Source: an uncultured Rhabdothermincola sp. (lineage in GTDB: Bacteria > Actinomycetota > Acidimicrobiia > Acidimicrobiales > Acidimicrobilacustridaceae). Taken from it: a stretch of DNA of 53,160 bases. The notes beneath the pieces are model-generated. The model made no database searches. It was given only the letters and a program-made list of their open reading frames with translations, and had not been told where the DNA came from. Positions 10,875-48,957 of this stretch are shown here, one piece after another. Position 1 is the first letter of the stretch; every line of letters starts with the position of its first letter. Position numbers and translations under genes: made by a program. Location: assembly GCA_964485515.1 (NCBI GenBank), contig CAZALT010000004.1:1-53160 (forward strand), in the 5' to 3' direction.

Positions 10875-10891
10875 AAGCAGGGACGGACCGC

Positions 10892-11014: not shown

Positions 11015-11087
11015 GACCTGGTCGAGATCTGGTCCTGGCTCGCAGGTGCGTCGGAGCCGGTGACCCTGTGCCATCGACGATCACCGA

Positions 11088-11113
11088 GAGACCCGCTCCC
11101 CGGAGCGGGTCTC
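11088..11113 (+). terminator. Terminator-like hairpin (11-bp GC-rich stem, 4-nt loop) followed by TTCCGTCTTCG
   Basis: gagacccgctc-cccg-gagcgggtctc read directly. Lies 214 nt after the kinase stop and 72 nt before the -35 of the SBP promoter. Confidence 0.4.
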
Positions 11114-11193
11114 TTCCGTCTTCGTGCTGATCGTCCTGGCCCCGGCACCCTTGAACCTCGGATCGGATCGGGGGAAGTGTCCTCTTGACTCAT

Positions 11194-11212
11194 GCAACCT
11201 ACGCAGTAGTAT
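11194..11212 (+). promoter_or_regulatory. Island operator/promoter motif, copy B (gCAACCTACgcaGTAGTAT) with -35 TTGACT at 11185-11190
   Basis: TTGACT-N16-TAGTAT geometry. 48 nt upstream of ATG 11260. Confidence 0.6.
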
Positions 11213-11259
11213 GTGACTATCGTCATCCGACCGATCAGGTTTTTCTAAGGGGGAACCGA

Positions 11260-12450
11260 ATGCACAGGGGAATCCGCTCCATAGGAGTGTTCGCAGTCGT
11301 CACACTCGGATTGCTGAGCGCATGCTCGTCATCCGACGATGACGCGAACACGAACACCACATCCGGTGGCGGGGGCAGCGTGGACATCGCCGACTCGCAG
11401 GCCAACGTCGATGCGATGCTCGCCGAACCGACCAACGTCGGGGTCACGGAACCGCTCGCCGAGGCACCGCCGACCGGCATCAAGGCCATCTACCTCCAGT
11501 GCCCCGTGCCGGAGTGCCAGACCTACGGCGACGGCGTCAACGCGGCGACCGATGCGCTCGGCTGGGAGTTGAGCCGCATCAACTTCGACCTCACGCCCGA
11601 GTCTGCTCAGGCCGCCTTCGACCAGGCGATCAACGAGGCGCCCGACGTCATCTACTCGGTGGCCGCCTCACCGACGTGGCTCGACGCCCAACGGCAGAAG
11701 GCCGAAGACGCGGGCATCGTGTTCATCGACTTCGCCAACGTCTACGAGGACGATCCGACCACGGCCGTCGGTGGCTTCGGCGATGCCGTCGCTCCGCCCG
11801 CCGGCCTCCTGCAGGGGGCGGACCACGTCCGCTTCATCGGCACGCAGATGGCGGACTACGCCATCGTCGAGACCGACGGCAACGTGAACGCCCTCGCCGT
11901 GTACATCCCGGACTTCCCGATCGGTGTCCCCCCGGCAGTCGGGTTCGCCGAGCGCCTTGAAGAGGTGTGCCCGGACACGTGCAAGAGCACCGACCTGCAG
12001 ATCTCGGCCACCGACATCGGATCCACGCTCCCGCAGAAGATCACGAGCGAGCTGCAGCGCGACCCGTCGATCAACTACTTGATGTTCATCTCCGGCAGCT
12101 TCGCCACCGGCGTCGTCACCGCGATCACGGATCTCGGCAAGCAGGACGATGTGAAGATCGTCGGCAACGCTCCGATCGTGACCAGCCTCGAAGAGATGGA
12201 CCGCGGTCCGGTCGAGCAGGCGTGGGTCGGCCTCAACGCCGAGCTGGTCGGTTGGCGCATGGTCGACATGAGCATCCGTGCCCTCCAGGGCGAGACCATC
12301 CCCGAGAAGCCGTCTGGTCCCGACGACACCTCGGCCGCCGCCTGGCCGCCCGTGCAGCTGCTCACGGCCGAGACCTACCCCGAGCCGGTTCCCTACGAGG
12401 GGCCCGAGGGCTACCAGGACATGTTCCTGGAGCTGTGGGGCATCAACTGA
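11260..12450 (+). CDS. ABC transporter substrate-binding lipoprotein, PBP type 1 (sugar/CUT2-like), paralog 1
   Basis: ORF 11185..12450 trimmed to ATG 11260 (SD AAGGGGGA). Signal plus lipobox GLLSACSS. PBP1-like alternating beta/alpha pattern. Two Cys pairs (CPVPEC, CPDTC). Clear paralog of 49273..50478. Confidence 0.85.
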   Translation: MHRGIRSIGVFAVVTLGLLSACSSSDDDANTNTTSGGGGSVDIADSQANVDAMLAEPTNVGVTEPLAEAPPTGIKAIYLQCPVPECQTYGDGVNAATDALGWELSRINFDLTPESAQAAFDQAINEAPDVIYSVAASPTWLDAQRQKAEDAGIVFIDFANVYEDDPTTAVGGFGDAVAPPAGLLQGADHVRFIGTQMADYAIVETDGNVNALAVYIPDFPIGVPPAVGFAERLEEVCPDTCKSTDLQISATDIGSTLPQKITSELQRDPSINYLMFISGSFATGVVTAITDLGKQDDVKIVGNAPIVTSLEEMDRGPVEQAWVGLNAELVGWRMVDMSIRALQGETIPEKPSGPDDTSAAAWPPVQLLTAETYPEPVPYEGPEGYQDMFLELWGIN

Positions 12451-12539
12451 AGTCCGTCCGGACACGCAGGTCGGGATCCAACCCGGCCTGCGTGGCCAGG
12501 ACCGCATTGCCCACACCGATCTGAGGGAGAACGCACGCC

Positions 12540-12761
12540 ATGACCGTCGACACCCGCCTCCACCTCACCGTGGATCCCGATCTCTGCCAGGGACATGCCC
12601 GCTGCTACGCGCTGGCTCCGGAGCTGTTCGACATCGACGACGTCGACGGGCACTCCCAAGCCAAACCCGGTCCCGTGCCGGTCGAGCTCGAGGCCAAGGC
12701 CGAGCTCGCTGTCCGAAGCTGCCCGGAACGGGCGATCAGCCTCAGCGGAGGCGAACGATGA
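12540..12761 (+). CDS. 3Fe-4S ferredoxin (P450 redox partner type)
   Basis: 73 aa. CQGHARC...CP cluster motif (DPDLCQGHARCYALAPELF ... SCPERAI). Confidence 0.85.
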   Translation: MTVDTRLHLTVDPDLCQGHARCYALAPELFDIDDVDGHSQAKPGPVPVELEAKAELAVRSCPERAISLSGGER

Positions 12762-12780
12762 GTGGGGAGACCGCACAGCC

Positions 12781-14082
12781 ATGACCGACAACACCGCAAC
12801 CGAGATCTCGCCCGCGAACGACCCCTCGCTCGCGGCGGGCGAAGACCTGAGCTGGGTCGAGACCAGCTTCTCTCCCGTGAACAAGGAGAAGCTTCAGGAC
12901 CCGTACCCCGCCTACCAGGCGCTGCGCGAACGGTGCCCGATCGCGCACAGCGACGCCCTCGACGTCGAGTTCCCCGAGTGGGCGCCCGAGCCCTACGCCG
13001 GCACCGTCAAAGAGGGCTTCTGGGTCGTGTCCCGCTACGCCGACGTGTACCGCGTGGCCCGCGACGCCGAGACCTTCATCTCGTCGGCCGGCACGCTGCT
13101 GCCCGGCCTCGGCATCCCGCGTCCGCTCGTTCCCCAGGAGATCGACCCGCCTCGGCACCTGAAGTTCCGGAACCTCGTGAGCCCGGTCTTCTCGCCGCCG
13201 AGCATCGCCAAGCTCGAGGACACGATCCGCGACATCGCGACCGACCTGCTCGACAGCTTCATCGACGAGGGCCAGGTCGACATCGTCGCCCGCTTCACCG
13301 AGCGACTCCCGACCTACGCCGTCTGGCGCGAGCCGCTGCTCGGCCGCCCGATCCCGTTCAAGGTCGAAGGCGACTTCGAGGAGACGATCGCCGCGCTCGT
13401 CTACGACGTGAACCACGTCCCCGAGCGCGGTGAGGCAGCCTCGATCGAGATCCGCTCCTACCTCGAGCGCATCCTCGCCGACCGGCGGGAGAACCCGGCG
13501 AACGACATCCCGACGAACCTCGTCAACGCCGAGATCGATGGCAAGCCGATCGACGAGATCGAGCAGGTCGACATGCTCTTCCTGCTCTTCTCGGCTGGCA
13601 TCGAGACCACCTCTTCGGCACTGGCGTCGTGGCTCGTACACCTCGCGAAGGATCCCGGCCTGCGCACGCGGCTCATCGAGGAGCCGGAGCTCATGCCCAC
13701 CGCGATCGAGGAATTCCTCCGGTACCTCGGTCCCACCCAGGCCGAGAAGCGCACCGTCACCTGCCCGGTCACGATCCACGACCAAGAGCTCGACTCGGGC
13801 GACTCGGTCATGGTGCTGTGGGGCGCGGCCAACCGCGACGAGACCGAATTCCCGGACGCGCACGAGTTCCAACCCGAACGGTTCCCGAACCGGCACCTCG
13901 CCTTCGGCGCCGGTATCCACCGGTGCATCGGTTCGAACCTGGCCCGCCTCGAGGCGAAGATCGCTCTGGAGGAGCTGCTCAAGCGGTTCCCGAACTACCG
14001 CATCCCGGAGATCGACTCGCTCGACTGGGAGGTCGGGATCTCCCGAGGGCTGCACCACCTCACCATCGACCTCAACCGCTGA
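12781..14082 (+). CDS. Cytochrome P450
   Basis: ORF 12595..14082 trimmed to ATG 12781 (MTDNTATE...). FGAGIHRCIGSNLAR heme loop, EEFLRY (ExxR), AGIETT I-helix. Confidence 0.95.
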   Translation: MTDNTATEISPANDPSLAAGEDLSWVETSFSPVNKEKLQDPYPAYQALRERCPIAHSDALDVEFPEWAPEPYAGTVKEGFWVVSRYADVYRVARDAETFISSAGTLLPGLGIPRPLVPQEIDPPRHLKFRNLVSPVFSPPSIAKLEDTIRDIATDLLDSFIDEGQVDIVARFTERLPTYAVWREPLLGRPIPFKVEGDFEETIAALVYDVNHVPERGEAASIEIRSYLERILADRRENPANDIPTNLVNAEIDGKPIDEIEQVDMLFLLFSAGIETTSSALASWLVHLAKDPGLRTRLIEEPELMPTAIEEFLRYLGPTQAEKRTVTCPVTIHDQELDSGDSVMVLWGAANRDETEFPDAHEFQPERFPNRHLAFGAGIHRCIGSNLARLEAKIALEELLKRFPNYRIPEIDSLDWEVGISRGLHHLTIDLNR

Positions 14083-14346
14083 TCGAGGGCGACCCAGACC
14101 TGTCGCTGGGTCGTGTGGCCGGTGATTCCCCCCCGCTGGCCCCTCCAGGGGGTGGCCCCGATTCGGGCTGCCTCCTGGAGACCCTTACCTCACATCTCGA
14201 ACCGCTTGGGTCCCGGAGTCGAGGAGAAACCTTCGCCGGCAACCGAGGTCTGACGGGCGATGCCGATACAACCAAGACACCGGGCACGCGAGCAGGGAAG
14301 CGTGGTCGGACGGGGCAAGAACACCGCTGAGAGGATCGAGAAGCAC

Positions 14347-15150
14347 GTGGGAGTGGTCGAGGAGATCGAGCTGGCCGAGGCGGTCACGAGCCTCCGCGCC
14401 GGCGATGTCGTCTACATCGGAAACTTCGGGGCGCCGCTGCACCTCGTCGGGCACGAGCTGATCCGGCAGCACCGCCGGGATCTGCACATCGTGATGGGGT
14501 CCGGAGGGATCCTGCTCGACGCGCTGATCGGAACCGGCGTCGCGGCCCAGGCGACCTTCGCCCACTGCTGGGGCCCAATCGGGCCGGTGCCCGCGTGGAA
14601 CCTCCGGCGATCGGTCGAGCAGGAGGGCGGTGCGGAGCGCATCCACGAGCTCAGCCTCGGCGCCATGCACGCCGCGCTGCTCGCCGGGGCATGGGGTGTG
14701 CCGTTCATGCCCGTCGCTGGCCTCGACGACACCGGCTACGTCCAGGACTGGGCGTCGGAGTCGTTCACCCGGGTCGATAGCCCCTTCGGCGAGGCGACGG
14801 TCGTCGCGGCCCTCGTGCCCGACATCGCCTTCATCCACGCCGACGTGGTCGACCGCCGAGGCAACGCCGTGATCAGGACGCCCTTCGGCGAATCCATCGT
14901 CGCCGCACAGGCTTCACGCCGCACCGTGATCGTCGCCGAAGAGATCCACCCGGCAGGGAGCGACTCGACCCGATCAGCCGAGCTCCCCGGGGCGCTCGTC
15001 TCCGCCATCGTTGAGCTGCCCGGTGCGGTCCGTCCTGACGGTGTCGCCCACCGGTACCCCCGCGACGTCGAGGCGTACAAGGCCTACGGCGAGGCGAGCC
15101 GCACGCCCGAGGGTTTCGCGGCCTGGGTCGACGAAGTGGTTCACGTATGA
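14347..15150 (+). CDS. Class I CoA-transferase fold, subunit A (GctA/IpdA-like)
   Basis: ORF 14260..15150. The first about 14 codons use A-ending codons atypical for this genome, so the start is probably GTG 14347 (or 14302/14353). LAEAVTSLRAGDVVYIGNFG N-terminus, ELSLGAMHAALLAGAWGVPFMPV, C-terminal YPRDVEAYKAYGEA as in GctA/IpdA-type subunits (from memory). Confidence 0.8.
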   Translation: MGVVEEIELAEAVTSLRAGDVVYIGNFGAPLHLVGHELIRQHRRDLHIVMGSGGILLDALIGTGVAAQATFAHCWGPIGPVPAWNLRRSVEQEGGAERIHELSLGAMHAALLAGAWGVPFMPVAGLDDTGYVQDWASESFTRVDSPFGEATVVAALVPDIAFIHADVVDRRGNAVIRTPFGESIVAAQASRRTVIVAEEIHPAGSDSTRSAELPGALVSAIVELPGAVRPDGVAHRYPRDVEAYKAYGEASRTPEGFAAWVDEVVHV

Positions 15151-15920
15151 GTGGCCCAACCGCTTCGGTCGCGCCGCCGCTCGCCGCCCACTTCCTTCCC
15201 CGGGCTGCGGTCGAGGTGAGCAGCCACGACTGGGTCTTCACCGGATTCAACTGGCCGATCCTCGCCGCACGCCTCGCTCGCGCCCTCGACCTGGGGAACT
15301 TCGTGCAGGTCCTCGAAGGAGGCGCCGCGTTCGACCGCGACACGGCGACCCTGCTGACGAGCACCACCGACTACTTCGCGTACGACGACGCCAACTGCTT
15401 CCGGGGATCGCTCGGCGACGTCCTCTTCTCGGTGGTCCCGCGCTGCGGTGCCGTCGTGGTCGACGGCGCCAACGTCGACATCCGCGGACGGACGAACACG
15501 ACCGCCATCGGTCCCGTCGCCGCTCCGAAGGTCCGCATGCCCGGCGGTGGCGGCGGTCCCGACGCCATGGCGCGTGCACAGCGCCTGGTCCTGCTCCACG
15601 CCGGGGGCGACCCACGGCGCATCGTGCGCGAGGTCGAGCACGTCACCGGCAGCCCGGGCCCCGAGACGGATGTGCGCCTCATCACCCGGTGGGGTGTTCT
15701 GCAGCTCGGCGCTGCGCCCACGCTGCTGACGGTCGTCGACCACGAATCCACGGAAGGCTTCGTCGACTGGCTCCGCTCGCTGGATGTGGAGGTCTACGAC
15801 GCCGTCGCGGTCGACACCGTCGACGATGACATGCGGGCGGCCTGTGCACAGGTGCTCGCGGAAGGAGCCGCCGCCGGATACGCCGGCGCGGCGGCCGAGC
15901 TCGCGGCGGCAACAGCATGA
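15147..15920 (+). CDS. Class I CoA-transferase fold, subunit B (GctB/IpdB-like)
   Basis: ATGA overlap with subunit A. ILAARLARALDLGNFVQVLEGGAAF and VVDGANVDIRGRTNTTAIG resemble beta-subunit blocks. Ala-rich C-terminal tail. Confidence 0.75.
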   Translation: MSGPTASVAPPLAAHFLPRAAVEVSSHDWVFTGFNWPILAARLARALDLGNFVQVLEGGAAFDRDTATLLTSTTDYFAYDDANCFRGSLGDVLFSVVPRCGAVVVDGANVDIRGRTNTTAIGPVAAPKVRMPGGGGGPDAMARAQRLVLLHAGGDPRRIVREVEHVTGSPGPETDVRLITRWGVLQLGAAPTLLTVVDHESTEGFVDWLRSLDVEVYDAVAVDTVDDDMRAACAQVLAEGAAAGYAGAAAELAAATA

Positions 15921-15969
15921 GAACGCGTCGTCCGGTGGGATGCGACGCCCGAACAGGGAGCACCGCTCG

Positions 15970-17295
15970 ATGACCCACCAACGGTTCGACGACCGGATCT
16001 GGTCCGAGCGGGAGACCTGGTCCCGCGACCAGCTGGCCGACTTCCAGCTCGCCCGCCTCCAGGAGCAGCTCGTCCGCGTCGGCGACTCGAGCCGGCTGTA
16101 CCGAGAGCAGTGGCAGGCGATCGGTTGGTCGCCTCAGGATCTTGGTTCGCTCGACGACCTGCGCGCACTCCCGTTCACGAAGAAGCAGGACTACGTCTTC
16201 AGCCTCGAGGTCGACGCTCCGTGGGGTGCCGCTCTCGCGGTCGATCCCGACGACGTGCGTCGCGTCCACTTCTCGTCGGGGACCACGTCCTCGCCGGCTC
16301 CGGTCTACTGGACGCAGTCGGATCTCGACCGCTGGGCCGACCTCTACGCCCGCGCGGCATACAGCCAGGGTGTCCGGTCGAGCGACATCTACCAGTGCCT
16401 GTTCAACTACTCGTGGTTCGTCGGTGGTCTCGGCGCGACGGCGGGCTACCAGCACCTGGGCTGCACCTGCATCCCCGGCGGTTCGTCGGACACGCTCCGC
16501 CAGCTCGAGACCATCGAGCGGTTCGGTGTCACCGCCGTCGGCGGTACGCCGTCGTTCCTGCTCCACCTCGCCGAAGCAGCGGAAGAGCACGGGATCGACC
16601 TGAAGAACGGCAGCGTGCAGCGGGTCATGACCGGCGGCGAGCCGGGCGCCGCGCTGCCCGGCGTCCGCGACCAGATCGAGACCCGCTGGGGAGCGAAGGC
16701 CTACGACGGCTACGGCTCCATCGAGTTCCAGCCCATCGCATGGGAGTGCGAGGCGCAGGCCGGCGGTCATCTCACCGAGGACTTCGCCTACGCCGAGGTG
16801 CTCGACCCCGACTCGCACGAGCCGGTCGCCGACGGCCAACCCGGTGTGCTCGTGCTCACGCACCTCGACAAGGCCGCCGTGCCGCTCGTGCGCTGGTGGA
16901 CCGGCGACATCGTCGTCCGAGACGGCGGCAGCTGCGAATGCGGCCGCACCAGTGCTCGCCTGCCCGGTGGCGTCCGCGGCCGGGCCGACGACATGCTCGT
17001 CATACGTGGCGTGAACGTGTTCCCGAGCGCGGTCGAGAACGTCGTGCGCCGGAACCTCGGGACGCTCGGCGAGTTCCGCATCATCGAGGACCCCGACCTG
17101 CGGGACCCCGCCACGGGGTTCCTCACGGCGATCCGCCTCGACATCGAGATCGCATCTGGCGACGAAGCGAAGCTGGACGTGCTCGGTGCGGCCATCCGCA
17201 AGGACCTCCAGGTTCGAGCCGTCATCAATCCGCTCGAGCCGGGATCGCTGCCTCGGACGACCCACAAGGCGAACAGGCTCGTGCGAGATGGCTGA
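15970..17295 (+). CDS. Phenylacetate-CoA ligase-like (PaaK / F390 synthetase family) adenylate-forming enzyme
   Basis: ORF 15784..17295 trimmed to ATG 15970 (SD CAGGGAG). WSRDQLADFQLARLQEQL, LPFTKKQDY, P-loop-like FSSGTTSSP, C-terminal RGRADDMLVIRGVNVFPSAVE. Confidence 0.85.
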   Translation: MTHQRFDDRIWSERETWSRDQLADFQLARLQEQLVRVGDSSRLYREQWQAIGWSPQDLGSLDDLRALPFTKKQDYVFSLEVDAPWGAALAVDPDDVRRVHFSSGTTSSPAPVYWTQSDLDRWADLYARAAYSQGVRSSDIYQCLFNYSWFVGGLGATAGYQHLGCTCIPGGSSDTLRQLETIERFGVTAVGGTPSFLLHLAEAAEEHGIDLKNGSVQRVMTGGEPGAALPGVRDQIETRWGAKAYDGYGSIEFQPIAWECEAQAGGHLTEDFAYAEVLDPDSHEPVADGQPGVLVLTHLDKAAVPLVRWWTGDIVVRDGGSCECGRTSARLPGGVRGRADDMLVIRGVNVFPSAVENVVRRNLGTLGEFRIIEDPDLRDPATGFLTAIRLDIEIASGDEAKLDVLGAAIRKDLQVRAVINPLEPGSLPRTTHKANRLVRDG

Positions 17296-18103
17296 GCCAG
17301 GCGACCGTCATCCCGCCGAGGTGCTCGCGCCGTGCAGCCTTGACGGGCTCGTCGCCCTCGTCACCGGTGGTGGGTCGGGCCTGGGTCGAGCGATCACGCG
17401 GCGACTCAACGCGCTCGGCGCGATGGTGTGGATCGTGGGACGTACCCAGCAGGACCTCGAGACGACGGTTGCGGGCTGCGAGGTACCGTCGCGCTGCTTC
17501 TCCCAGGTCTGCGACGTGCGCGACCGCGAGGCGTTCACCGCGCTGGTCGCTCAGATCGGCGAGATCAGCGGTCTCGACCTGCTCGTCAACAACGCCGGCG
17601 GTCAGTTCTTCGCCCCAGCGACGGACATCTCACCCGGTGGCTGGCGGTCGGTTCTGGAGCTGAACCTCGACTCGGTCTTCTGGGCGTGTTCGGCGGCCTA
17701 CCCCTACCTGCGCCGATCGTCCGGCCCCTCGATCGTCAGCATCTCGTTGAGCGGAGTCGAGCGCGGTGGCATGGGCATGGCGCACTCGATAGCGGCGCGT
17801 TCGGGCGTGCTGGGCCTGTCCCGCACGTTGGCGCTCGAATGGGCGAACGACGGGATCCGGGTCAACTGCCTCGGGCCTGGAACGGTGGTCACCGAACGGC
17901 TCGAGGCCAACGCCGATCCGGCCGTGCTCGACGCACTGGTCGCCGCCACGCCACTCGGTCGCGCGACCGAGCCCGAGGAGGTCGCCGAGATCGTGTGCCT
18001 GCTTGCGTCGCGTGCGGGAGCGATGACCACGGGTCAACTCATCCAGGTCGACGGCGGCGCGAACCTGGGTGCCGGACTCCACATGATCGATGCCACCGCG
18101 TGA
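17288..18103 (+). CDS. SDR-family oxidoreductase
   Basis: ORF 17186..18103 trimmed to ATG 17288 (8-nt overlap with the ligase stop). VTGGGSGLGRA, NNAGG, HSIAARSG region. PGTVVTE. Confidence 0.9.
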   Translation: MAEPGDRHPAEVLAPCSLDGLVALVTGGGSGLGRAITRRLNALGAMVWIVGRTQQDLETTVAGCEVPSRCFSQVCDVRDREAFTALVAQIGEISGLDLLVNNAGGQFFAPATDISPGGWRSVLELNLDSVFWACSAAYPYLRRSSGPSIVSISLSGVERGGMGMAHSIAARSGVLGLSRTLALEWANDGIRVNCLGPGTVVTERLEANADPAVLDALVAATPLGRATEPEEVAEIVCLLASRAGAMTTGQLIQVDGGANLGAGLHMIDATA

Positions 18104-18600
18104 CCAAACCCCTACCCGACGGTTCTGACGGACCGGACTACGAGCGCTTGCGTGACCGTCTCGGCCGCGGCGCGCCGTTCGTCGACCTCATCGGCGCACG
18201 CCTCGACGAGCTCGGACCGGGGTTCAGCGTCGTGTCTCTGGCGATGACCCCGTCGCTGACCAACGGGGTCGGCACGTTCCATGCCGGCGCCCTTTTCGCG
18301 GGCGCCGACACCGCGGCCGGATCGGCCGCGTTCGGGCTGCTCGCCACGGTGGCGCGTCTGCGCGAGGTCGTCCTGGTCACCCGCAACGCCGATATCGACT
18401 TCCGACAGCCGGCGAGCTCCGATCTGCTCGTGCGGGCGACGGTGCGCGGCAGCCACGACGAGCTGCTCGACCCATGGAGGGAGGAACGTCCGGTGCGCCT
18501 GCCCGTCGGCGTTGAGCTGTTCAGCGCCGCCCCGGAAGGTGCGAGACCGACGTGGGTCGGCACCGCCACCTTCACCTGCGTGGCGTGGCGCAACACCTGA
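18100..18600 (+). CDS. Hotdog-fold thioesterase (PaaI/4HBT-like)
   Basis: GTG 18100 overlaps the SDR stop (GTGA). GVGTFHAGALFAGADTAAG matches the PaaI-type G-x-x-H-G-G region loosely. About 166 aa. Confidence 0.75.
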   Translation: MTKPLPDGSDGPDYERLRDRLGRGAPFVDLIGARLDELGPGFSVVSLAMTPSLTNGVGTFHAGALFAGADTAAGSAAFGLLATVARLREVVLVTRNADIDFRQPASSDLLVRATVRGSHDELLDPWREERPVRLPVGVELFSAAPEGARPTWVGTATFTCVAWRNT

Positions 18601-18619: not shown

Positions 18620-19675
18620 TCAGAGCGGGTAGCCGACGAGCAGGCTCCACGGGTCGTCGATGGTCGCGTCGGCGCCGATCTGCTCGCTGCACCACAGGCT
18701 GGTGCCGTCCTCCTGCTGCCAGGACCAAAGGCGCGAGGTCGACCGGGCGAGCGCGTGCTCGTCGGTGAACCCGATCGCACCGTGGAGCTGGTGGGCGGAG
18801 CGGGCGACGAGCGCGGCGCACTCGTTCGCCTGGACCTTCGCGGCGAGGGTCGCGATCTCCACGCCGGTCGCGTCGGCCCATCCCGGGCGGGTCAGCGCCG
18901 CGGCCGCGTCGACCGCGGTCGCGGCGGCCACGGTGATGGATGCCATCGCTGCAACGGTGTGTTGCACGACCTGGTAGCGGGCGAGCGGCTTGCCGAACTG
19001 CACCCGGCCCTGGACGTGGTCGATGGCGTGTTGGCAGGCGGTCTCGGCCGCTCCGACGATCATCGCGGCGCGCCCCAGGCGCGCCTGACGGGAGAGCTCG
19101 GTGAGGAGTGCGGGGTCGCATGACGCGACGGCGCTCGAACCGACGAGGAGATCGAGGTTCGCGGAGTCCCGTGGCTCGCCCGCCATGTTCGTGCCGGTCT
19201 GCCACGTGATCGACTGGGGATCGAGCTGGACGATGCGGCACGAGCCGTCCGCGTCCTGCGAGGCGATGACGAGGAGGTCGGCGGCGGCGCCCCACGGAAC
19301 CCGGGAGAGCGGTCCCGCGAGGTGCCAGCCGTCCTCGCCCTGCGACAGGCGCAGCGGAGATCGGGTGTAGGTCAGGGGCCCCGACGGCACGGTCACGCCG
19401 ACGGCGTGGAGCGCGAGCCCGGCGAGCCGGGTCTCGAGGAGGGGGATCGGGCTCGCCCCGGCGGCGACCATGCGCAGCGCCAGGAGGGCGTGCTCGATCT
19501 CGCCGTCACCCCCGTTGGCGGCGGCGGGCAGCGTCACGTGGGTGAGCCCCATCGACTCGACGTCGAGCCAAGCCTTCACGTCGAAGGCGGGAGCTGCGTT
19601 GAGCGCGATGCCGTGCGTCGGTGGTTCGAAGATGGCGGCGAGGGTCCCGCGCAGGAGGTCGAGGTCGTCGCTCAT
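18620..19675 (-). CDS. Acyl-CoA dehydrogenase family protein, beta-type subunit of a heteromeric pair
   Basis: ORF 18620..19954 trimmed to ATG 19675 (ATGA overlap with the upstream ACAD). ACAD C-terminal domain (FGKPLARYQVVQHTVAAMA, HQLHGAIGFTDEHAL) but a short, divergent N-terminal half. Confidence 0.8.
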   Translation of the reverse strand: MSDDLDLLRGTLAAIFEPPTHGIALNAAPAFDVKAWLDVESMGLTHVTLPAAANGGDGEIEHALLALRMVAAGASPIPLLETRLAGLALHAVGVTVPSGPLTYTRSPLRLSQGEDGWHLAGPLSRVPWGAAADLLVIASQDADGSCRIVQLDPQSITWQTGTNMAGEPRDSANLDLLVGSSAVASCDPALLTELSRQARLGRAAMIVGAAETACQHAIDHVQGRVQFGKPLARYQVVQHTVAAMASITVAAATAVDAAAALTRPGWADATGVEIATLAAKVQANECAALVARSAHQLHGAIGFTDEHALARSTSRLWSWQQEDGTSLWCSEQIGADATIDDPWSLLVGYPL

Positions 19676-20841
19676 CGGAGCTCCAGCGACCGGGCGATGA
19701 GACCGCGGAGCACCTCGTTGGTGCCGCCGCGGATGGTGAAGCCGGGGGAGTGGAGCGTCGCCGACGCGAGCATGCGGGCGAGCGGGTCGTCGCTCGTCGG
19801 GTCGGCGGGGGTGTCGAGCACGGCGAGTGCCGCCTCGACGACGTCCTGCTCGAAGGTCGTGCCGAGGTCCTTGACCAGCGCGGCCGCGACCATCGGTGCC
19901 TCGCCCTTGCCGAGCGCCCCGGCGATCGCTAGGGAGAGCTGGCGAAGGGTCCACAGCCGGGCGACCAGCGCGCCGACCACGGGCCGCAGGGCGCGGCCGA
20001 CCTCATCGTCGGTCGCGCCTCGGGCCGCCATCTCGGCGAGGAGGGGGTAGGTGCTGAGGAAGCGCTCCGGCCCGCTGCGCTCGTAGGCGAGCTCGGACGT
20101 GACCTGGCTCCAGCCGTCGCCCACCCCCCCGAGGACCTGATCGTCGGGGACGAAGACGTCGTCGAACACGACCTCGTTGAAGTGGTGAGCGCCGGTCAGC
20201 AGCCGGATCGGGTTGATGGTCACACCCGCGGCCGGGAGGTCCACGACGAACTGGCTCAGACCGGCGTGCCGGGGACCGTCGCCGACGGAAGCCGACCGCG
20301 CGAGCACGACGATGGCAGCGCACTCGTGGGCGCCGCTCGTCCAGACCTTCGTGCCGTCGAGGCGCCAGCCGCCGTCGACCCTGGTTGCCTTCGTCCGCAC
20401 GGCAGCGAGGTCCGATCCGGCGTCGGGCTCGCTGAGGCCGATGGCGAAGTAGCAGGTGCCGGCGACGATGCCGGGCAGGTAGCGGTCCTGGAGGTGCGCC
20501 GTACCGTGCTTGAGGAGCGCCGGGGCGATCTGCCGATCAGAGAACCAATGGGCGGCGACCGGCGCTCCGGCAGCGAGCAGCTCCTCGATCACGACGTAGC
20601 GATCGAGCGGGCTGTGGCCGTGGCCGCCGTGCTCGACCGGGATGGTCATGCCGATCCAGCCGCGAGCCGCGAGCGCCTGGCTGAACGCCGGATCCCAACC
20701 AGCGAGCCACGCGTCGACGCGAGGTGTGAACTGCCCGCTCGCCCGCGCCTCGGCGAGGAACGAGCGCACGTCAGCACGGAGATCCCAGGTCGACTCGTCG
20801 AGGGGGTTGGGGACCGGGACGAGCGTCGAGAGGTCAGGCAC
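19672..20841 (-). CDS. Acyl-CoA dehydrogenase, alpha-type subunit
   Basis: 389 aa. GWIGMTIPVEHGGHG, FAIGLSEPDAGSD, KVWTSGAH, IRGGTNEVLRGLIA. GTG start overlapping the upstream hydratase stop by 8 nt. Confidence 0.9.
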   Translation of the reverse strand: MPDLSTLVPVPNPLDESTWDLRADVRSFLAEARASGQFTPRVDAWLAGWDPAFSQALAARGWIGMTIPVEHGGHGHSPLDRYVVIEELLAAGAPVAAHWFSDRQIAPALLKHGTAHLQDRYLPGIVAGTCYFAIGLSEPDAGSDLAAVRTKATRVDGGWRLDGTKVWTSGAHECAAIVVLARSASVGDGPRHAGLSQFVVDLPAAGVTINPIRLLTGAHHFNEVVFDDVFVPDDQVLGGVGDGWSQVTSELAYERSGPERFLSTYPLLAEMAARGATDDEVGRALRPVVGALVARLWTLRQLSLAIAGALGKGEAPMVAAALVKDLGTTFEQDVVEAALAVLDTPADPTSDDPLARMLASATLHSPGFTIRGGTNEVLRGLIARSLELR

Positions 20842-21607
20842 CGACCCACCTCGGGGTCCGCTTCTCCCCGAAGGCCTTCGCCCCTTCGGCCGCGTCGGCC
20901 GACTTGCGTACCGGATCGACGATGGGCTCCTGGCGGTCGAAGACCTCGTGGACAGGCCAGTCGACCGACTCGCGCACGACTCGCTTCGAGGCAGCCGCGG
21001 CGAGCGGGGCGTTCGCCGCGACGACTGCGGCGAGCTCGAGGGCGGCCGGGAGCGCCTCGCCGGCAGGCGTGAGCCGGTTGATGAGCCCGAGCTCGAGTGC
21101 TCGGGCCGGCTCGATGGGCTCCCCCGAGAGGATCAGCTCCATGGCCTGGTGGTAGGGGATGCGGTGCGGCAGGCGGAAGAGGCCGCCGCCGCTCGCGGTG
21201 AGCCCCCGCTTGACCTCCGGGAGTCCGAAGCGGGCCCGTTCCGACGCCACGATGAGGTCGCAGGCCAGCACCACCTCGAAGCCGCCGCCCATGGCGGGGC
21301 CGTCCACCACGGCGATCAGCGGTTTGGTGGCGGGCTGCTTCACGATGCCGGCGAACCCGCGCGGGCCGAACACCATCTCCTCGCCGCGGGCGAACGCCTT
21401 GAGGTCCATGCCGGCGCAGAAGGCGGGACCGTTGCCGGCGATGACGCCGACGCGCAGCTCGGACTCGTCGTCGAGGCGATCGAGGGCCGCGGCGATGAGC
21501 GCCGACACCTCGGTGTTGATGGCGTTGCGGGCGTCGGGACGGTTGAGGGTGACGACGAGGATGCCATCGCCGACGACCTCGGTGAGAACGGGCGAGGTGT
21601 CGGTCAT
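20834..21607 (-). CDS. Enoyl-CoA hydratase/isomerase (crotonase) family
   Basis: 257 aa. LVVTLNRPDARNA, FCAGMDLK, VDGPAMGGGFEVVLACDL. Confidence 0.9.
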   Translation of the reverse strand: MTDTSPVLTEVVGDGILVVTLNRPDARNAINTEVSALIAAALDRLDDESELRVGVIAGNGPAFCAGMDLKAFARGEEMVFGPRGFAGIVKQPATKPLIAVVDGPAMGGGFEVVLACDLIVASERARFGLPEVKRGLTASGGGLFRLPHRIPYHQAMELILSGEPIEPARALELGLINRLTPAGEALPAALELAAVVAANAPLAAAASKRVVRESVDWPVHEVFDRQEPIVDPVRKSADAAEGAKAFGEKRTPRWVGA

Positions 21608-22362
21608 CGGGGCCCCATCCGCACGGCGCCGTCGAGGCGGATCGTCTCGCCGTTCAACATCCCGTTCCCGATGATCTGCATCGCCAGGTCGGCGTACTCG
21701 GCGGGATCACCGAACCGCCGAGGGTGCGGGGTGGTCTCCGCCAGCTTCTCGCGAGCGGCGTCGGGCACCCGGGCGAGCAGCGGCGTGTCGAACAGGCCGG
21801 GGGCGATGGTCGACACGCGGATCTGCTTGCTGGCGAGGTCTCGGGCGGCCACGAGCGTAAGTCCGACGATGCCCGCCTTCGACGACGCGTAGGCGGTCTG
21901 GCCGACCTGGCCCTCCCACGCCGCGACCGACGCCGTGAGGACGCACACGCCGCGGTCGCCGTCGACCGGGTCGTTCGTCGCCATCGACGCAGCGGCGAGG
22001 CGCAGCACGTTGTAGGTGCCGACGAGGTTGATCTCGATCGTGTCCTGGAACTCGTCGAGCGACCCCGGATTGCCGTCCCGGTCGAGGACGCGGACCGGGC
22101 CGCCTCGACCGGCGCAGTGCACCAGGGCGCGGAGGGGTGCGAGGTCGGCGGCCATGGCGACCGCCGCGTTGACCTGGTCGGTGTCGCGGATGTCGGCGGG
22201 GCTGAACCGTGCCCCGATGTCGGCCGCGACCTTGGCGCCGTCGGAGGACGGGAGGTCGACGATCACGACCGAGGAGCCTTCGGCGACGAGGCGCGTGGCG
22301 GCGGCCAGGCCGAGCCCGGAGGCCCCGCCGGTGACCAGGGAGCTGGACGATTGGAGGTGCAA
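21604..22362 (-). CDS. 3-hydroxyacyl-CoA dehydrogenase type II-like SDR
   Basis: 252 aa, TTG start. VTGGASGLGLA, ASVAAWEGQVGQTAYASSKAGIVG, APGLFDTP. ATGA overlap with the downstream hydratase start. Confidence 0.9.
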   Translation of the reverse strand: MHLQSSSSLVTGGASGLGLAAATRLVAEGSSVVIVDLPSSDGAKVAADIGARFSPADIRDTDQVNAAVAMAADLAPLRALVHCAGRGGPVRVLDRDGNPGSLDEFQDTIEINLVGTYNVLRLAAASMATNDPVDGDRGVCVLTASVAAWEGQVGQTAYASSKAGIVGLTLVAARDLASKQIRVSTIAPGLFDTPLLARVPDAAREKLAETTPHPRRFGDPAEYADLAMQIIGNGMLNGETIRLDGAVRMGPR

Positions 22363-22447
22363 GGCGGTCTCTGCTTTCGGGTGGAGATGGTGCTCGATCG
22401 GCGGGCGTGGCCAGGCGTAGAGGTCGAGCTGGACGGGGAGTCGAGGA

Positions 22448-23644
22448 TCAGATCGTCAGGTTCTCGATGAGCGTGGCGTTGGCCATGCCAGTGCCTTCGC
22501 ACATGACTTGGAGGCCGTAGCGGTTGCCCTCGGCGACGAGGTTGTGCACGAGCGTCCCCATGAGGCGGGTGCCCGACGCGCCGAGCGGGTGGCCGAGGGC
22601 GATGGCCCCGCCGAGCGGGTTGACCCGGTTGTCATCGATGCCGAACTCGCGCTGCCAGGCGAGCGGGATCGAGGCGAAGGCCTCGTTCACCTCGAACTGG
22701 GCGATGTCGTCGAGACGGACCCCGCTCGACGCGAGGATCTTCTCCGTCACCGGGATCGGACCGGTAAGCATCAGGATCGGGTCGGAACCGCACACGGCGA
22801 ACGAGTGGAACCGTGCGAGCGGTCGGAGGTCGAGCGCGGCGGCGCGCTCGGCGCTCATGATGAGCATGGCGCTGGCGCCGTCGGCGAACTGGGAGGAGTT
22901 GCCGGCGGTGACGCTCCAGCTGATCTCCGGGAAGCGGGCGGCCATCTCGTCGTCCTCGAACGACGGGTTGAGGCCGCGGAGTCGCTCGGTGGTGGTGCCG
23001 GCCCGGATCGTCTCGTCGTGCTCGACGCGCACGGCCCCGTCTTCGCCCGGCACGAAGATCGGCGTGATCTCCCTGGCGAACCGACCGCTCGTCGCGGCGT
23101 CGTCGGCTCGGGCGTGGGACCGGGCGGCGAAGTCGTCCATCTCGGAGCGGGAGATGTCCCATCTGGCGGCGATGAGCTCCGCGGCGATTCCCTGGGACAC
23201 CAGTCCGGGCGCGTACCGCGCCTCGACGGAGGGGCCAAACGGATCGACCCCCATGCGAGCGAGTCCCATGGGTACCCGGCTCATCGATTCGAGTCCGCCG
23301 ACGACGGCGACGTCGTAGGCGCCGGCCATGATCGCCTGGGCGCCGAAGTGGGCGGCCTGCTGGCTCGATCCGCAACGGCGATCGATCGTGACGGCCGGGA
23401 CGTGCTCGGGTCCGTCGGCGGCGAGCCAGGCCGCTCGGCCGGGGCAACCAGCCTGATCCTTGGCCTGGCTGACGCACCCGATGAGGACGTCATCGACGGT
23501 TCCCGGGTCGATTCCGGTGCGGTCGAGGAGCGAGCGGATGGTCTGGGCGAGGAGCTCGACCGCGTGCAGACCAGAGAGGGCGCCACCCGGCTTTCCCCGT
23601 CCCATGGGGGATCGGACGGCCTCCACGATCACGGCTTCGGTCAT
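22448..23644 (-). CDS. Thiolase (acetyl-CoA C-acyltransferase)
   Basis: 398 aa. Nucleophile region RRCGSSQQA, NEAFAS, GGAIALGHPLGASG, C-terminal CEGTGMA. SD GAGGAG. Confidence 0.95.
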   Translation of the reverse strand: MTEAVIVEAVRSPMGRGKPGGALSGLHAVELLAQTIRSLLDRTGIDPGTVDDVLIGCVSQAKDQAGCPGRAAWLAADGPEHVPAVTIDRRCGSSQQAAHFGAQAIMAGAYDVAVVGGLESMSRVPMGLARMGVDPFGPSVEARYAPGLVSQGIAAELIAARWDISRSEMDDFAARSHARADDAATSGRFAREITPIFVPGEDGAVRVEHDETIRAGTTTERLRGLNPSFEDDEMAARFPEISWSVTAGNSSQFADGASAMLIMSAERAAALDLRPLARFHSFAVCGSDPILMLTGPIPVTEKILASSGVRLDDIAQFEVNEAFASIPLAWQREFGIDDNRVNPLGGAIALGHPLGASGTRLMGTLVHNLVAEGNRYGLQVMCEGTGMANATLIENLTI

Positions 23645-23697: not shown

Positions 23698-23798
23698 TTT
23701 CTGCCAAGTCGAAAGTTGGCCGCTCGCGACGCTCGCGACACCTCGCGCTGCCGCCAGCCGTTGTCCGATCGCTCGCCGCTGATCACCGGGAGATGCAC

Positions 23799-34390: not shown

Positions 34391-34409
34391 AGCACCTACT
34401 CAGTAGTAT
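34391..34409 (+). promoter_or_regulatory. Island operator/promoter motif, copy G (agcACCTACTcaGTAGTAT) with TGGACA at 34380-34385
   Basis: TGGACA-N18-TAGTAT. 49 nt upstream of ATG 34458. Confidence 0.6.
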
Positions 34410-34457
34410 GTGACCGACGACGCACAGGGGTGTGCCCGTCGTGAAGGGGAATCGCAC

Positions 34458-48947: not shown

Positions 48948-48957
48948 CTTGACATCA

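What the first reader, a model, noticed from the sequence alone, without database searches (positions are those of the whole stretch)
11260..18600. Unusual eight-gene operon: sugar-type SBP, ferredoxin, P450, two-subunit CoA-transferase-fold protein, PaaK-like ligase, SDR and PaaI thioesterase
All eight genes are co-oriented and several are translationally coupled (ATGA at 15147, an 8-nt overlap at 17288, GTGA at 18100). One motif-bearing promoter at 11185-11212 sits at the head.

The combination is not a textbook pathway. It pairs a binding protein of the carbohydrate (PBP1/CUT2) type with a P450 monooxygenase system. Next comes a PaaK/F390-synthetase-type adenylating enzyme, which normally acts on arylacetates or small carboxylates. 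Then there is a GctAB/IpdAB-type heterodimer, an oxidoreductase and a hotdog thioesterase.

A plausible reading is import of a carboxylated alicyclic or aromatic compound, hydroxylation, CoA activation, oxidation, and then CoA-dependent ring hydrolysis or CoA transfer. That is inference only.

The 264-nt gap (14083-14346) before the transferase genes has no motif copy and no clear terminator.
Basis: inference. Interest (0 to 1): 0.7.

Follow-up and report, generated by a model that had tools for sequence, protein, structure and literature searches.

The report
Composite actinobacterial acyl-CoA catabolic operon
The eight genes are real and probably one operon, but they are two separately conserved modules joined together: an uptake and P450 module, and a widespread, uncharacterised CoA-transferase/ligase/reductase module, both under a DarR-type repressor that controls most of this 50-kb lipid-catabolism island.

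Summary
Eight co-oriented genes lie at 11260-18600, with the stated overlaps, one sigma-70-like promoter at 11185-11212, and a 177-264-nt gap before the transferase genes.

All eight family assignments are confirmed, and some can be sharpened:
- The two-subunit protein (CtAB) has a class I CoA-transferase fold. It keeps the catalytic beta-subunit Glu of glutaconate CoA-transferase. It lacks the catalytic alpha-subunit Glu of IpdA. So CoA transfer is favoured over IpdAB-type ring hydrolysis.
- The SDR is a PECR/AtuB-type enoyl-CoA-reductase-like enzyme.
- The "motif" is a DarR-type operator, CTACT-N4-AGTAT. It has 9 copies in the window against 0.08 expected.

The eight-gene block is found only in one close relative, where it is split over two contigs. 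What is broadly conserved across Actinomycetota is CtA-CtB, the PaaK-like ligase and the SDR. These travel with a PimCD-like two-subunit acyl-CoA dehydrogenase, FadE3, thiolase, hydratase and the TetR regulator.

The binding protein belongs to a small family that sits next to oxygenases. It most likely feeds the CUT2 ABC importer at 34.4-37.1 kb, which has no binding protein of its own.

The substrate is unknown. A methyl-branched or isoprenoid acid or dicarboxylate is the best inference. I rate this a new variant of a known kind, of moderate interest.

The parts
11085..11115 (+). GC-rich hairpin (GAGAGACCCGCTCC...GGAGCGGGTCTCT) upstream of the promoter; the likely boundary with the upstream APH gene
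   Evidence: Sequence read. The upstream neighbour differs in the close relative L093.
11185..11216 (+). Promoter TTGACT-16-TAGTAT, overlapped by the DarR-type operator CTACGCAGTAGTAT (11199-11212)
   Evidence: The same promoter and operator are conserved upstream of the SBP in L093.
11260..12450 (+). SBP1: lipoprotein, PBP1/CUT2-type (PF13407) solute-binding protein of a small, divergent family
   Evidence: No PDB hit by sequence. The model has pLDDT 90 and a ribose-binding-protein-like fold at 13-19% identity.
12463..12494 (+). Hairpin in the SBP/ferredoxin intergenic region
   Evidence: Sequence read. Its function (mRNA stabiliser or attenuator) is inferred.
12540..12761 (+). Single-cluster ferredoxin (Fer4_15/Fer4_13)
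12781..14082 (+). Cytochrome P450. Best solved relatives are a reconstructed CYP125 ancestor (2.9e-68), then P450cin, CYP126, CYP130 and CYP124
14089..14180 (+). Three consecutive GC-rich hairpins without a U-tract in the P450/CtA gap. No promoter-like site and no operator copy here
14347..15150 (+). CtA, alpha subunit of a class I CoA-transferase-fold enzyme (PF01144). Alternative starts at 14260 and 14302
15147..15920 (+). CtB, beta subunit. No Pfam hit. Invariant Glu57 and a GGGG motif. Fold nearest AibB, then GctB, then IpdB
15970..17295 (+). PaaK-family acyl-CoA ligase (AMP-binding + AMP-binding_C_2). Scores below the PaaK equivalog cut-off
17288..18103 (+). SDR of the PECR/AtuB/DECR subtype (HSIAAR in place of YxxxK); probably an enoyl-CoA reductase
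18100..18600 (+). Hotdog-fold thioesterase (DUF4442/4HBT, PaaI-like)
   Evidence: Present in the close relative L094 but not in distant loci.
18620..23644 (-). Convergent, translationally coupled operon: thiolase 22448-23644, SDR-type hydroxyacyl-CoA dehydrogenase ~21604-22365, enoyl-CoA hydratase 20834-21607, and the two-subunit acyl-CoA dehydrogenase FadEa 19672-20841 and FadEb 18620-19672. These co-occur with CtAB in other genomes
   Evidence: The best NCBIfam hit for FadEa is the PimC large subunit, below cut-off.
23793..24980 (+). FadE3, an acyl-CoA dehydrogenase conserved with the module at 62-68% identity
25066..25698 (-). DarR-like TetR-family repressor (TetR_N + TetR_C_24), with operators at 25830-25843 and 25966-25979 in its divergent promoter region
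34396..37087 (+). Operator at 34396-34409, then a CUT2-type ABC ATPase with two ABC domains (34458-36023) and a permease (36020-37087). It has no SBP of its own and is the likely partner of SBP1 and SBP2
   Evidence: In L089 an SBP homologue sits directly next to a 40%-identical ATPase.
48934..51572 (+). Second operator-bearing operon: operators at 48934-48947 and 48963-48976, SBP2 (49273-50478; a 49%-identical paralogue of SBP1 with a lipobox), and a PhyH-family dioxygenase (50508-51572)

Best explanation
The eight genes form a composite catabolic operon. It is transcribed from one housekeeping-type promoter whose -10 region is covered by a DarR-type TetR operator.

**Module 1: SBP-Fdx-P450.** This module is lineage-specific. 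It captures a substrate outside the cell and hands it to the CUT2-type ABC importer at 34.4-37.1 kb, which has no binding protein of its own and carries the same operator. The substrate is then oxygenated by a CYP125/124-like P450 with its own ferredoxin.

**Module 2: CtA-CtB-ligase-SDR (+thioesterase).** This is an acyl-CoA module conserved across Actinomycetota.
- The PaaK-family ligase makes the first CoA thioester.
- CtAB is a genuine class I, glutaconate-CoA-transferase-type CoA-transferase. It activates a second acid, probably a dicarboxylate or glutaconate-like acid, or moves CoA onto it.
- The PECR/AtuB-type SDR reduces an enoyl-CoA.
- The adjacent PimCD-like two-subunit dehydrogenase, hydratase, hydroxyacyl-CoA dehydrogenase and thiolase carry out beta-oxidation.
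- The hotdog thioesterase releases CoA from dead-end esters.

**What is shown and what is inferred.**
- Shown: the gene families, the active-site signatures, the operator regulon, and the pattern of conservation.
- Inferred: co-transcription across the gap, the SBP-importer partnership, the direction and order of reactions, and the substrate class. The best guess for the substrate is a methyl-branched or isoprenoid acid or a derived dicarboxylate. That guess rests on the CYP125/124-like P450, the PECR/AtuB-like reductase, and the PhyH, Ltp-type thiolase and family III CoA-transferase genes in the same regulon.
For: **Families.**

**CtB active site.** Glu57 is invariant in 28 family members. 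It aligns with AibB Cys56, which is the position of the catalytic Glu of glutaconate CoA-transferases (PMC7756340) and of Gly57 in IpdB (PMC5380842). 106 of 115 full-length HMM relatives carry Glu there, in a (Y/F)E(S/A/G)G context, together with a G-x-G-G motif.

**CtA active site.** CtA has Leu or Met where IpdA has the Glu that is mutated in PDB 6coj.

**CtB fold.** The model has pLDDT 91. Matches are AibB at TM 0.65-0.70, GctB at 0.67 and IpdB at 0.55-0.59, followed by all other class I CoA-transferases.

**Conserved neighbourhood.** CtA, CtB, the ligase, the SDR, the FadE pair, FadE3, the TetR, thiolase and hydratase recur in Amycolatopsis, Micromonospora, Streptomyces, Actinophytocola, Cryptosporangium and several MAGs. 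In Mycolicibacterium the same set occurs without the ligase.

**Regulator and operator.**
- The TetR's best solved relatives are DarR proteins (8.7e-35).
- The published DarR operator is ATACT-N4-AGTAT, and the optimised form is CTACT-N4-AGTAT (PMC10636190).
- The window has 9 matches to CTACT-N4-AGTAT against 0.08 expected, all lying in stretches between the genes I mapped (approximate map).
- The same motif lies directly upstream of CtB/CtA or of a P450-CtA operon in four other genomes, and upstream of the SBP in the close relative.

**SBP and importer.**
- SBP homologues sit next to a P450 (L093, L095/96) or next to a luciferase-like monooxygenase plus a homologous ABC ATPase (L089).
- SBP2 precedes a PhyH dioxygenase.

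**Reductase link to isoprenoids.** PECR reduces phytenoyl-CoA in phytol breakdown (PMC9524157).
Against: - No enzyme activity or transcript data exist.
- By sequence and fold, the closest solved relative of CtAB is the decarboxylase AibAB, not a transferase. An AibB C56E mutant keeps 13% of its activity (PMC7756340), so a Glu at this position does not prove CoA transfer.
- Three strong hairpins lie between the P450 and CtA genes. The two modules are conserved separately, so they could be separate transcripts.
- The SBP fold is that of sugar binders, and its ligand cannot be read from 13-19% identity.
- Most genomes with the CoA module lack this P450 and this SBP. Amycolatopsis uses a LivK-type importer instead. 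The substrate of the conserved module therefore need not require P450 oxidation.
- The isoprenoid/dicarboxylate idea rests on family-level resemblances that are all below the curated equivalog cut-offs.
- No 2-hydroxyacyl-CoA lyase was seen among the genes I scanned against family libraries to complete a PhyH-type alpha-oxidation route. Not every open reading frame in the window was scanned (for example the acyl-CoA-dehydrogenase-like frame at 32264-33407).
Confidence: 0.5

Rival explanations
1. CtAB is an IpdAB-type hydrolase that opens a beta-keto alicyclic acyl-CoA ring. On this view the operon degrades a carboxylated alicyclic compound, by analogy with steroid C/D-ring (HIP) catabolism.
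For: - CtAB shares the CoA-transferase fold with IpdAB.
- The surrounding gene families parallel the KstR2 regulon: a ligase, several FadE genes, an SDR, a hydratase, a thiolase, an NMO-family gene at 8400-9314 and a TetR (PMC5380842).
- The TetR also matches KstR2, at 5.5e-14.
Against: - IpdB is defined by loss of the beta-subunit Glu (it has Gly57). CtB keeps that Glu invariantly (PMC5380842).
- The residue mutated in the IpdA variant structure 6coj is Leu or Met in all 12 CtA sequences.
- IpdB is a marginal sequence match (E = 0.006, against 3e-15 for AibB and 5e-13 for GctB) and the weakest of the three fold matches.
- The TetR is far closer to DarR (8.7e-35) and uses a DarR-type operator.
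Confidence: 0.12
2. CtAB is an AibAB-like, cofactor-free decarboxylase acting on a 3-substituted glutaconyl-CoA. It would remove a carboxyl group introduced at a methyl branch.
For: - AibA and AibB are the best solved matches for both subunits (1e-18 and 3e-15; 26-27% identity, TM about 0.65-0.70).
- The AibB C56E mutant retains 13% activity (PMC7756340).
- A PECR/AtuB-like SDR and a CYP125/124-like P450 fit methyl-branched or isoprenoid chemistry.
Against: - The residue that sets AibB apart from transferases, Cys56, is Glu in every CtB.
- Glu is the state in 106 of 115 relatives, most with the transferase-like ESG/EAG context.
- The AibB Glu72 context (SSED) is replaced by an invariant STTD.
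- No HMG-CoA synthase or other aib-operon partner was seen in the genes I scanned.
Confidence: 0.15
3. The block is two independent, merely adjacent units: SBP-Fdx-P450, and CtA-CtB-ligase-SDR-thioesterase. Their substrates are unrelated, and the eight-gene operon is an accident of neighbourhood.
For: - Three GC-rich hairpins lie right after the P450 stop, within a gap of at least 177 nt.
- The two halves are conserved separately in other genomes.
- In the close relative the assembly breaks exactly in this gap.
Against: - There is no promoter-like site and no operator copy in the gap. In other genomes the operator sits immediately upstream of CtB/CtA.
- In L090 a P450 gene ends 9 nt before CtA, behind the same operator.
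- The close relative carries both halves at 78-85% nucleotide identity.
- The hairpins lack U-tracts.
Confidence: 0.2

Closest known systems
Glutaconate CoA-transferase GctAB (Acidaminococcus fermentans; PDB 1POI), a class I CoA-transferase
   Same: - Two-subunit alpha/beta architecture with translationally coupled genes.
- PF01144 fold in the alpha subunit.
- A beta-subunit Glu at the catalytic position, and a G-x-G-G motif.
- Fold match at TM 0.67.
   Different: - Only about 20% identity.
- CtB falls below every Pfam and NCBIfam threshold.
- It has a family-specific invariant STTD(Y/F) motif.
- The setting is an aerobic actinobacterial beta-oxidation context, not glutamate fermentation.
- Activity is untested.
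AibA/AibB 3-methylglutaconyl-CoA decarboxylase (Myxococcus xanthus; PDB 5MZW)
   Same: The closest solved relative of both subunits (26-27% identity for the beta subunit), with the same heterodimer fold.
   Different: AibB has Cys56 where CtB has the invariant Glu57 (PMC7756340). The operon context is different.
IpdAB COCHEA-CoA ring hydrolase of the KstR2 regulon (Mycobacterium tuberculosis, Rhodococcus jostii; PDB 6CO6, 6CON)
   Same: The same fold. Both are actinobacterial, sit among FadE, hydratase, thiolase and SDR genes, and are under a TetR repressor (PMC5380842).
   Different: - IpdB lacks the beta-subunit Glu (it has Gly57); CtB has it.
- The residue mutated in the IpdA variant structure 6coj is Leu or Met in CtA.
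- Similarity to IpdB is marginal.
- The regulator is DarR-like, not KstR2.
Dicarboxylate beta-oxidation clusters: pimFABCDE of Rhodopseudomonas palustris and dca of Acinetobacter baylyi (compared from my own knowledge of these clusters)
   Same: These clusters combine acid activation (a ligase in pim, the class I CoA-transferase DcaIJ in dca) with an acyl-CoA dehydrogenase (two-subunit PimCD in pim), a hydratase, a hydroxyacyl-CoA dehydrogenase, a thiolase and a dedicated binding-protein-dependent importer. The best NCBIfam hit for FadEa is the PimC large subunit. Amycolatopsis pairs the module with a LivK-type importer.
   Different: All hits are far below the equivalog cut-offs. The ligase is PaaK-type. 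The module has an extra PECR-like reductase and extra FadE3, cyclase and P450 genes. No substrate is known.
DarR (Mycolicibacterium smegmatis), a c-di-AMP-binding TetR-family repressor
   Same: The best solved homologue of the window's TetR (8.7e-35). The operator matches ATACT-N4-AGTAT, or CTACT-N4-AGTAT in the optimised form (PMC10636190). The regulator controls its own gene from a divergent promoter region.
   Different: DarR itself controls its own gene, a transporter and cspA. Here at least 9 sites head catabolic operons over 40 kb. Binding of c-di-AMP or any other ligand is untested.

Membership tests
Class I (Gct-type) CoA-transferase | Two subunits, alpha and beta, with the CoA_trans fold | tested here: met
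   CtA matches PF01144 at 2.8e-15. The CtB model (pLDDT 91) matches AibB, GctB, IpdB and then all other class I transferases. The two genes overlap by ATGA.
Class I (Gct-type) CoA-transferase | Catalytic Glu in the beta subunit (Glu54 of GctB), which forms the acyl/CoA-thioester intermediate | tested here: met
   CtB Glu57 is invariant in 28 sequences. It aligns to AibB Cys56, which is the Gct catalytic position (PMC7756340; PMC5380842). This rests on alignment only.
Class I (Gct-type) CoA-transferase | Glycine-rich G-x-G-G loop in the beta subunit (this motif is recalled from my own knowledge of the family) | tested here: met
   P-G-G-G-G-(A/G)-P-D, with G133, G135 and G136 invariant.
Class I (Gct-type) CoA-transferase | CoA transfer between an acyl-CoA and a free acid | not testable with these tools
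   Needs an enzyme assay.
IpdAB ring hydrolase | Beta subunit lacks the transferase Glu (Gly57 in IpdB) | tested here: not met
   CtB has Glu57 (PMC5380842).
IpdAB ring hydrolase | Conserved catalytic Glu in the alpha subunit. This is the residue changed to Ala in PDB 6coj; its catalytic role is recalled from Crowe et al. 2018, which was not readable here | tested here: not met
   It aligns to Leu in CtA, and to Leu or Met in all 12 CtA homologues.
AibAB decarboxylase | Cys56 in the beta subunit in place of the transferase Glu | tested here: not met
   Glu57 occupies that column (PMC7756340).
PaaK phenylacetate-CoA ligase (equivalog) | Score above the curated equivalog cut-off, and a paa ring-oxygenase context | tested here: not met
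   TIGR02155 scores 276 bits against a cut-off of 646. No paaABCDE-type genes appeared in the window genes scanned. Family-level membership (AMP-binding + AMP-binding_C_2; PDB PaaK at 4e-75) is met.
PECR/AtuB-type SDR (enoyl-CoA-reductase-like) | H-S-x-A-A-R in place of the classical Y-x-x-x-K, and best similarity to PECR and AtuB | tested here: met
   AHSIAARSG aligns with VHSGAARAG of PECR and GHSGAARSG of AtuB. E-values are 1e-46 and 5e-41. The substrate is untested.
DarR-type TetR regulator | Homology to DarR, and a palindromic (A/C)TACT-N4-AGTAT operator in its own and its target promoters | tested here: met
   PMC10636190. Binding itself, and any c-di-AMP response, are not testable here.
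CUT2-type ABC importer binding protein | PF13407 fold and an export/lipoprotein signal | tested here: met
CUT2-type ABC importer binding protein | Encoded next to its permease and its two-domain ATPase, and binds a sugar | tested here: inconclusive
   There is no transporter gene within the operon. A matching ATPase and permease without an SBP lie at 34458-37087 behind the same operator. A homologous SBP-ATPase pair is adjacent in L089. The ligand is unknown.

The most novel reading that the evidence does not exclude
The module of CtAB, PaaK-like ligase, PECR-like reductase and PimCD-like dehydrogenase is an undescribed acyl-CoA pathway conserved across Actinomycetota. In it, a new subfamily of class I CoA-transferase handles dicarboxylate or 3-alkyl-glutaconate-type intermediates of methyl-branched (isoprenoid) lipids. 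In this organism the pathway is fed by sugar-fold (CUT2) binding proteins that have been recruited to non-sugar substrates. Each of these is paired with its own oxygenase, they share one importer, and all are under a DarR-type repressor.
Probability: 0.15. Interest if true: 0.7.

Novelty: new variant of a known kind. Interest (0 to 1): 0.4.

Why it matters
1. **A third active-site state for this fold in Actinomycetota.** The two best-studied actinobacterial and myxobacterial relatives, IpdAB and AibAB, are both non-transferases. The CtAB subfamily, still carrying the Glu, sits in a conserved beta-oxidation module whose substrate nobody has named. NCBI currently labels members as "co-chaperone HscB".

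2. **A broader role for DarR-type regulators.** DarR is known as a c-di-AMP-binding regulator of a handful of genes. Here a DarR-type operator heads at least eight promoters of a 40-kb catabolic island, and it recurs upstream of the same module in other genera. That gives a testable link between this regulator class and lipid catabolism.

3. **A possible non-sugar use of a sugar-fold binding protein.** This binding-protein family is repeatedly paired with oxygenases. That suggests CUT2 importers carrying non-sugar substrates, which thermal-shift screening could test directly.

None of this changes a major concept. It is a well-defined target for pathway discovery.

Tried and rejected
- **RNA element in the gap.** Rfam gave no hit at gathering thresholds anywhere in the window. 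The 14080-14350 fold is not better than shuffles (z = -1.37). A riboswitch or other structured RNA in the gap is not supported.
- **Plasmid origin.** The window is not similar to any PLSDB plasmid beyond short 72-77% gene fragments.
- **Source organism.** It was not found among GTDB representative genomes; the best CtB match is 50% identical. Exact matches come only from Logan assemblies of SRR16797978/79.
- **Literature.** A search for this gene combination returned nothing. Searches on bacterial phytol and phytanate catabolism gave no relevant bacterial cluster. Crowe et al. 2018 (the IpdAB structure paper) could not be read.
- **SBP ligand.** No PDB sequence hit. The fold search gives only sugar binders at 13-19% identity, too distant to infer a ligand.
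- **CtB rarity.** My first impression of extreme rarity (32 hits) was softened. The exhaustive search gives 26 representative clusters at E<1e-30. Ligase orthologues are abundant, and the Amycolatopsis locus shows a CtB that the earlier scans missed.
- **Thiolase/FadE3 promoter region (23645-23789).** It holds only a degenerate half-operator. I do not count it as a site.
- **Alignment artefact.** A first attempt to read the active-site columns from a trimmed hmmalign output was mis-registered. It was redone correctly.

Full report
**1. What is in the sequence**

The window is about 69-70% G+C. I therefore called genes by third-position G+C and by translation. Between 11260 and 18600 there are eight co-oriented genes:
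- a lipoprotein solute-binding protein, SBP1, 11260-12450, with the signal and lipobox ...TLGLLSAC
- a small ferredoxin, 12540-12761
- a P450, 12781-14082, with the motif FGAGIHRCIG
- CtA, start to 15150
- CtB, 15147-15920
- a PaaK-family ligase, 15970-17295
- an SDR, 17288-18103
- a hotdog thioesterase, 18100-18600

Pfam and NCBIfam support each family except CtB, which matches nothing in either library.

The only sigma-70-like site in 10800-18800 is TTGACT-16-TAGTAT at 11185-11212. A GC-rich hairpin at 11085-11115 precedes it.

The CtA start is uncertain: 14260, 14302 or 14347. Homologue conservation starts near residue 36. An independent gene caller chose 14302.

The P450/CtA gap holds three GC-rich hairpins without U-tracts. 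It has no promoter-like site.

**2. The motif is a DarR-type operator, and it defines a regulon**

Comparing the 11185 promoter with other stretches between genes showed a shared 18-mer, ACCTACTCAGTAGTATGT, overlapping the -10 element. Its core, CTACT-N4-AGTAT, occurs 9 times in the window with at most one mismatch, against 0.08 expected by chance. All nine lie in stretches between the genes I mapped (approximate map). The sites are:

| Position | Strand | Gene or operon headed |
|---|---|---|
| 11199 | + | SBP1 operon |
| 25830 | - | TetR |
| 25966 | + | hydratase-APH-ACAD-cyclase operon |
| 31032 | - | an SDR |
| 34396 | + | ABC ATPase and permease |
| 43156 | - | a 101-codon reading frame |
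| 47701 | - | thiolase and hydratase |
| 48934 | + | SBP2-PhyH-SDR |
| 48963 | + | SBP2-PhyH-SDR |

The TetR at 25066-25698 has DarR proteins as its best solved relatives (8.7e-35). KstR2 is far weaker, at 5.5e-14. The published DarR operator is ATACT-N4-AGTAT, and an engineered optimal site is CTACT-N4-AGTAT (PMC10636190).

The same motif lies directly upstream of the CtB/CtA genes in Mycolicibacterium thermoresistibile, M. elephantis and a metagenomic contig. It also lies upstream of a P450-CtA-CtB-ligase-SDR operon in another contig, and upstream of the SBP in a close relative. Regulator, operator and CoA module therefore travel together across genera.

**3. What the two-subunit protein is**
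- CtA matches AibA (1e-18), GctA (1e-14) and IpdA (4e-13).
- CtB matches AibB (3e-15 with a family profile), GctB (5e-13) and, only marginally, IpdB (0.006).
- A confident CtB model (pLDDT 91) matches AibB, GctB and IpdB in that order, and then every class I CoA-transferase.

The three characterised relatives differ at known positions. GctB uses Glu54 as the catalytic residue. AibB has Cys56 at that position (PMC7756340). IpdB has Gly57 (PMC5380842).

In CtB the aligned residue is Glu57. It is invariant in 28 family members. Glu is present in 106 of 115 more distant full-length relatives, in the transferase-like context (Y/F)E(S/A/G)G with a G-x-G-G loop.

The residue mutated in the IpdA variant structure 6coj (Glu to Ala) aligns with Leu in CtA, and with Leu or Met in all 12 CtA homologues.

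By active-site signature, then, CtAB is a transferase-type member of the fold. It is not an IpdAB-type hydrolase or an AibAB-type decarboxylase. This rests on alignment and not on activity. The AibB C56E mutant keeps 13% activity (PMC7756340), so decarboxylation is not excluded.

**4. Conservation**

*The CtB family.* An exhaustive HMM search finds 26 representative clusters at E<1e-30.

*Neighbourhoods.* These were read, and by tblastn of the window's proteins against all fetched loci.
- The recurrent set is CtA, CtB, the PaaK-like ligase (61-67% identity), the SDR (58-64%), a two-subunit acyl-CoA dehydrogenase (FadEa 50-65%), FadE3 (62-68%), the TetR (42-64%), a thiolase, a hydratase and a hydroxyacyl-CoA dehydrogenase.
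- It occurs in Amycolatopsis, Micromonospora, Streptomyces, Actinophytocola, Cryptosporangium and several MAGs.
- Mycolicibacterium has the order CtB-CtA and no ligase.
- One contig has the order CtB-ligase-CtA.
- Amycolatopsis has a fused FadEa-FadEb and a LivK-type importer in the same operon.
- Ligase orthologues at 60% identity or more are numerous.

*The full eight-gene set.* SBP1, the ferredoxin, this P450 and the thioesterase are not part of the conserved set. The full set appears only in one close relative (sample ERR3200791), on two contigs:
- SBP-Fdx-P450, at 85% nucleotide identity
- the CtA 3' end, CtB, ligase, SDR, thioesterase and FadEb, at 78% nucleotide identity

The break between the contigs falls inside the hairpin-rich gap.

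*Conclusion.* The operon is a fusion of a lineage-specific uptake and oxygenation module with a widespread CoA module.

**5. The binding protein**
- SBP1 has no sequence match in the PDB.
- Its model (pLDDT 90) has a ribose-binding-protein fold at 13-19% identity.
- Its family is small.
- A 49%-identical paralogue, SBP2 (49273-50478), is followed by a PhyH-family dioxygenase.
- A 51%-identical homologue elsewhere is followed by a P450 that is 65% identical to the window's third P450, at 43175-44521.
- A 40%-identical homologue sits between a luciferase-like monooxygenase and an ABC ATPase that is 40% identical to the window's ATPase.
- In the window, the two-domain ATPase (34458-36023) and the permease (36020-37087) have no binding-protein gene beside them, and they carry the same operator.

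The simplest reading is that SBP1 and SBP2 both serve this importer. That is inference.

**6. Substrate class (inference only)**

Several family-level resemblances point to methyl-branched or isoprenoid acids, and possibly to dicarboxylates formed by terminal oxidation:
- The P450's best solved relatives are a CYP125 ancestor, P450cin and CYP124.
- The SDR carries the PECR/AtuB signature. PECR reduces phytenoyl-CoA in phytol breakdown (PMC9524157). The PDB entry for AtuB describes it as involved in citronellol catabolism.
- The regulon also holds a PhyH-family dioxygenase, an Ltp-type thiolase and two family III CoA-transferase-fold genes.
- The best NCBIfam hit for FadEa is the pimeloyl-CoA dehydrogenase large subunit.

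All of these scores are below the curated equivalog cut-offs. No 2-hydroxyacyl-CoA lyase was seen among the genes I scanned against family libraries, and not every reading frame in the window was scanned.

**7. Verdict**

This is not a new kind of system. It is a TetR-controlled catabolic operon, built from a previously uncharacterised but conserved CoA module plus an unusual uptake and oxygenase front end. I rate it a new variant of a known kind, with interest 0.4.

Noticed in passing
window 11199, 25830, 25966, 31032, 34396, 43156, 47701, 48934, 48963: There are nine copies of a DarR-type operator, CTACT-N4-AGTAT, against 0.08 expected. All lie in stretches between the genes I mapped and most overlap a -10 element. 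Together they define a regulon that spans about 40 kb of the window.
   Followed up: yes
window 49273-51572, and 34458-37087: A second lipoprotein SBP, 49% identical to SBP1, heads an operon with a PhyH-family dioxygenase and an SDR. The only CUT2-type ATPase and permease in the window have no SBP gene next to them. Homologues of this SBP family elsewhere also sit next to oxygenases (a P450, or a luciferase-like monooxygenase).
   Followed up: partly
window 26779-29180: An APH-family kinase gene runs directly into an acyl-CoA dehydrogenase gene, behind the 25966 operator. From my own knowledge, this pairing recalls the kinase plus ACAD logic of 4-hydroxyacyl-CoA catabolism (LvaA/LvaC, ACAD10/11). 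A second APH gene lies at 9816-10874, just upstream of the operon.
   Followed up: no
P0015 and P0019 (homologues of window 15147-15920): NCBI and UniRef name the CtB homologues of Mycolicibacterium thermoresistibile and Cryptosporangium "co-chaperone HscB". This conflicts with their CoA-transferase beta-subunit fold and looks like a misannotation.
   Followed up: partly
window 42691-42800 and 9332-9401: There are two short tandem repeats in stretches I did not assign to genes: about 3.3 copies of a 33-nt unit downstream of the SDR at 41908-42684, and about 5 copies of a 14-nt unit (GTCTCCGCCTGCCT) after the NMO-family gene.
   Followed up: no
window 42790-43095 (- strand): A 101-codon reading frame with high third-position G+C lies just downstream of the minus-strand operator at 43156. 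It has no Pfam match.
   Followed up: partly
L097 17535-19694; P0078: Gene fusions occur in relatives. In Amycolatopsis the two acyl-CoA dehydrogenase subunits are one 719-residue protein. One 577-residue protein (P0078) has the CtB-like part at residues 322-574, so it may be an alpha-beta fusion.
   Followed up: no
window 44-2516: A PaaX-like regulator (PaaX_M and PaaX_C domains) is followed by another P450. This pair lies outside the operator regulon.
   Followed up: no
L001 1-6319 (Mycolicibacterium thermoresistibile): Upstream of the CtB-CtA cluster lie, in order: a PEP-utilising enzyme, a biotin carrier, a biotin carboxylase, an HMGL-like/PYC_OADA carboxyltransferase, a DUF35-type OB protein and a thiolase. 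This looks like a carboxylase system of unknown role.
   Followed up: no
window 23645-23789: The divergent thiolase/FadE3 promoter region has only a degenerate half-operator (ATACCAAGTAGGAT). How the convergent FadE-hydratase-thiolase operon is regulated therefore remains open.
   Followed up: partly
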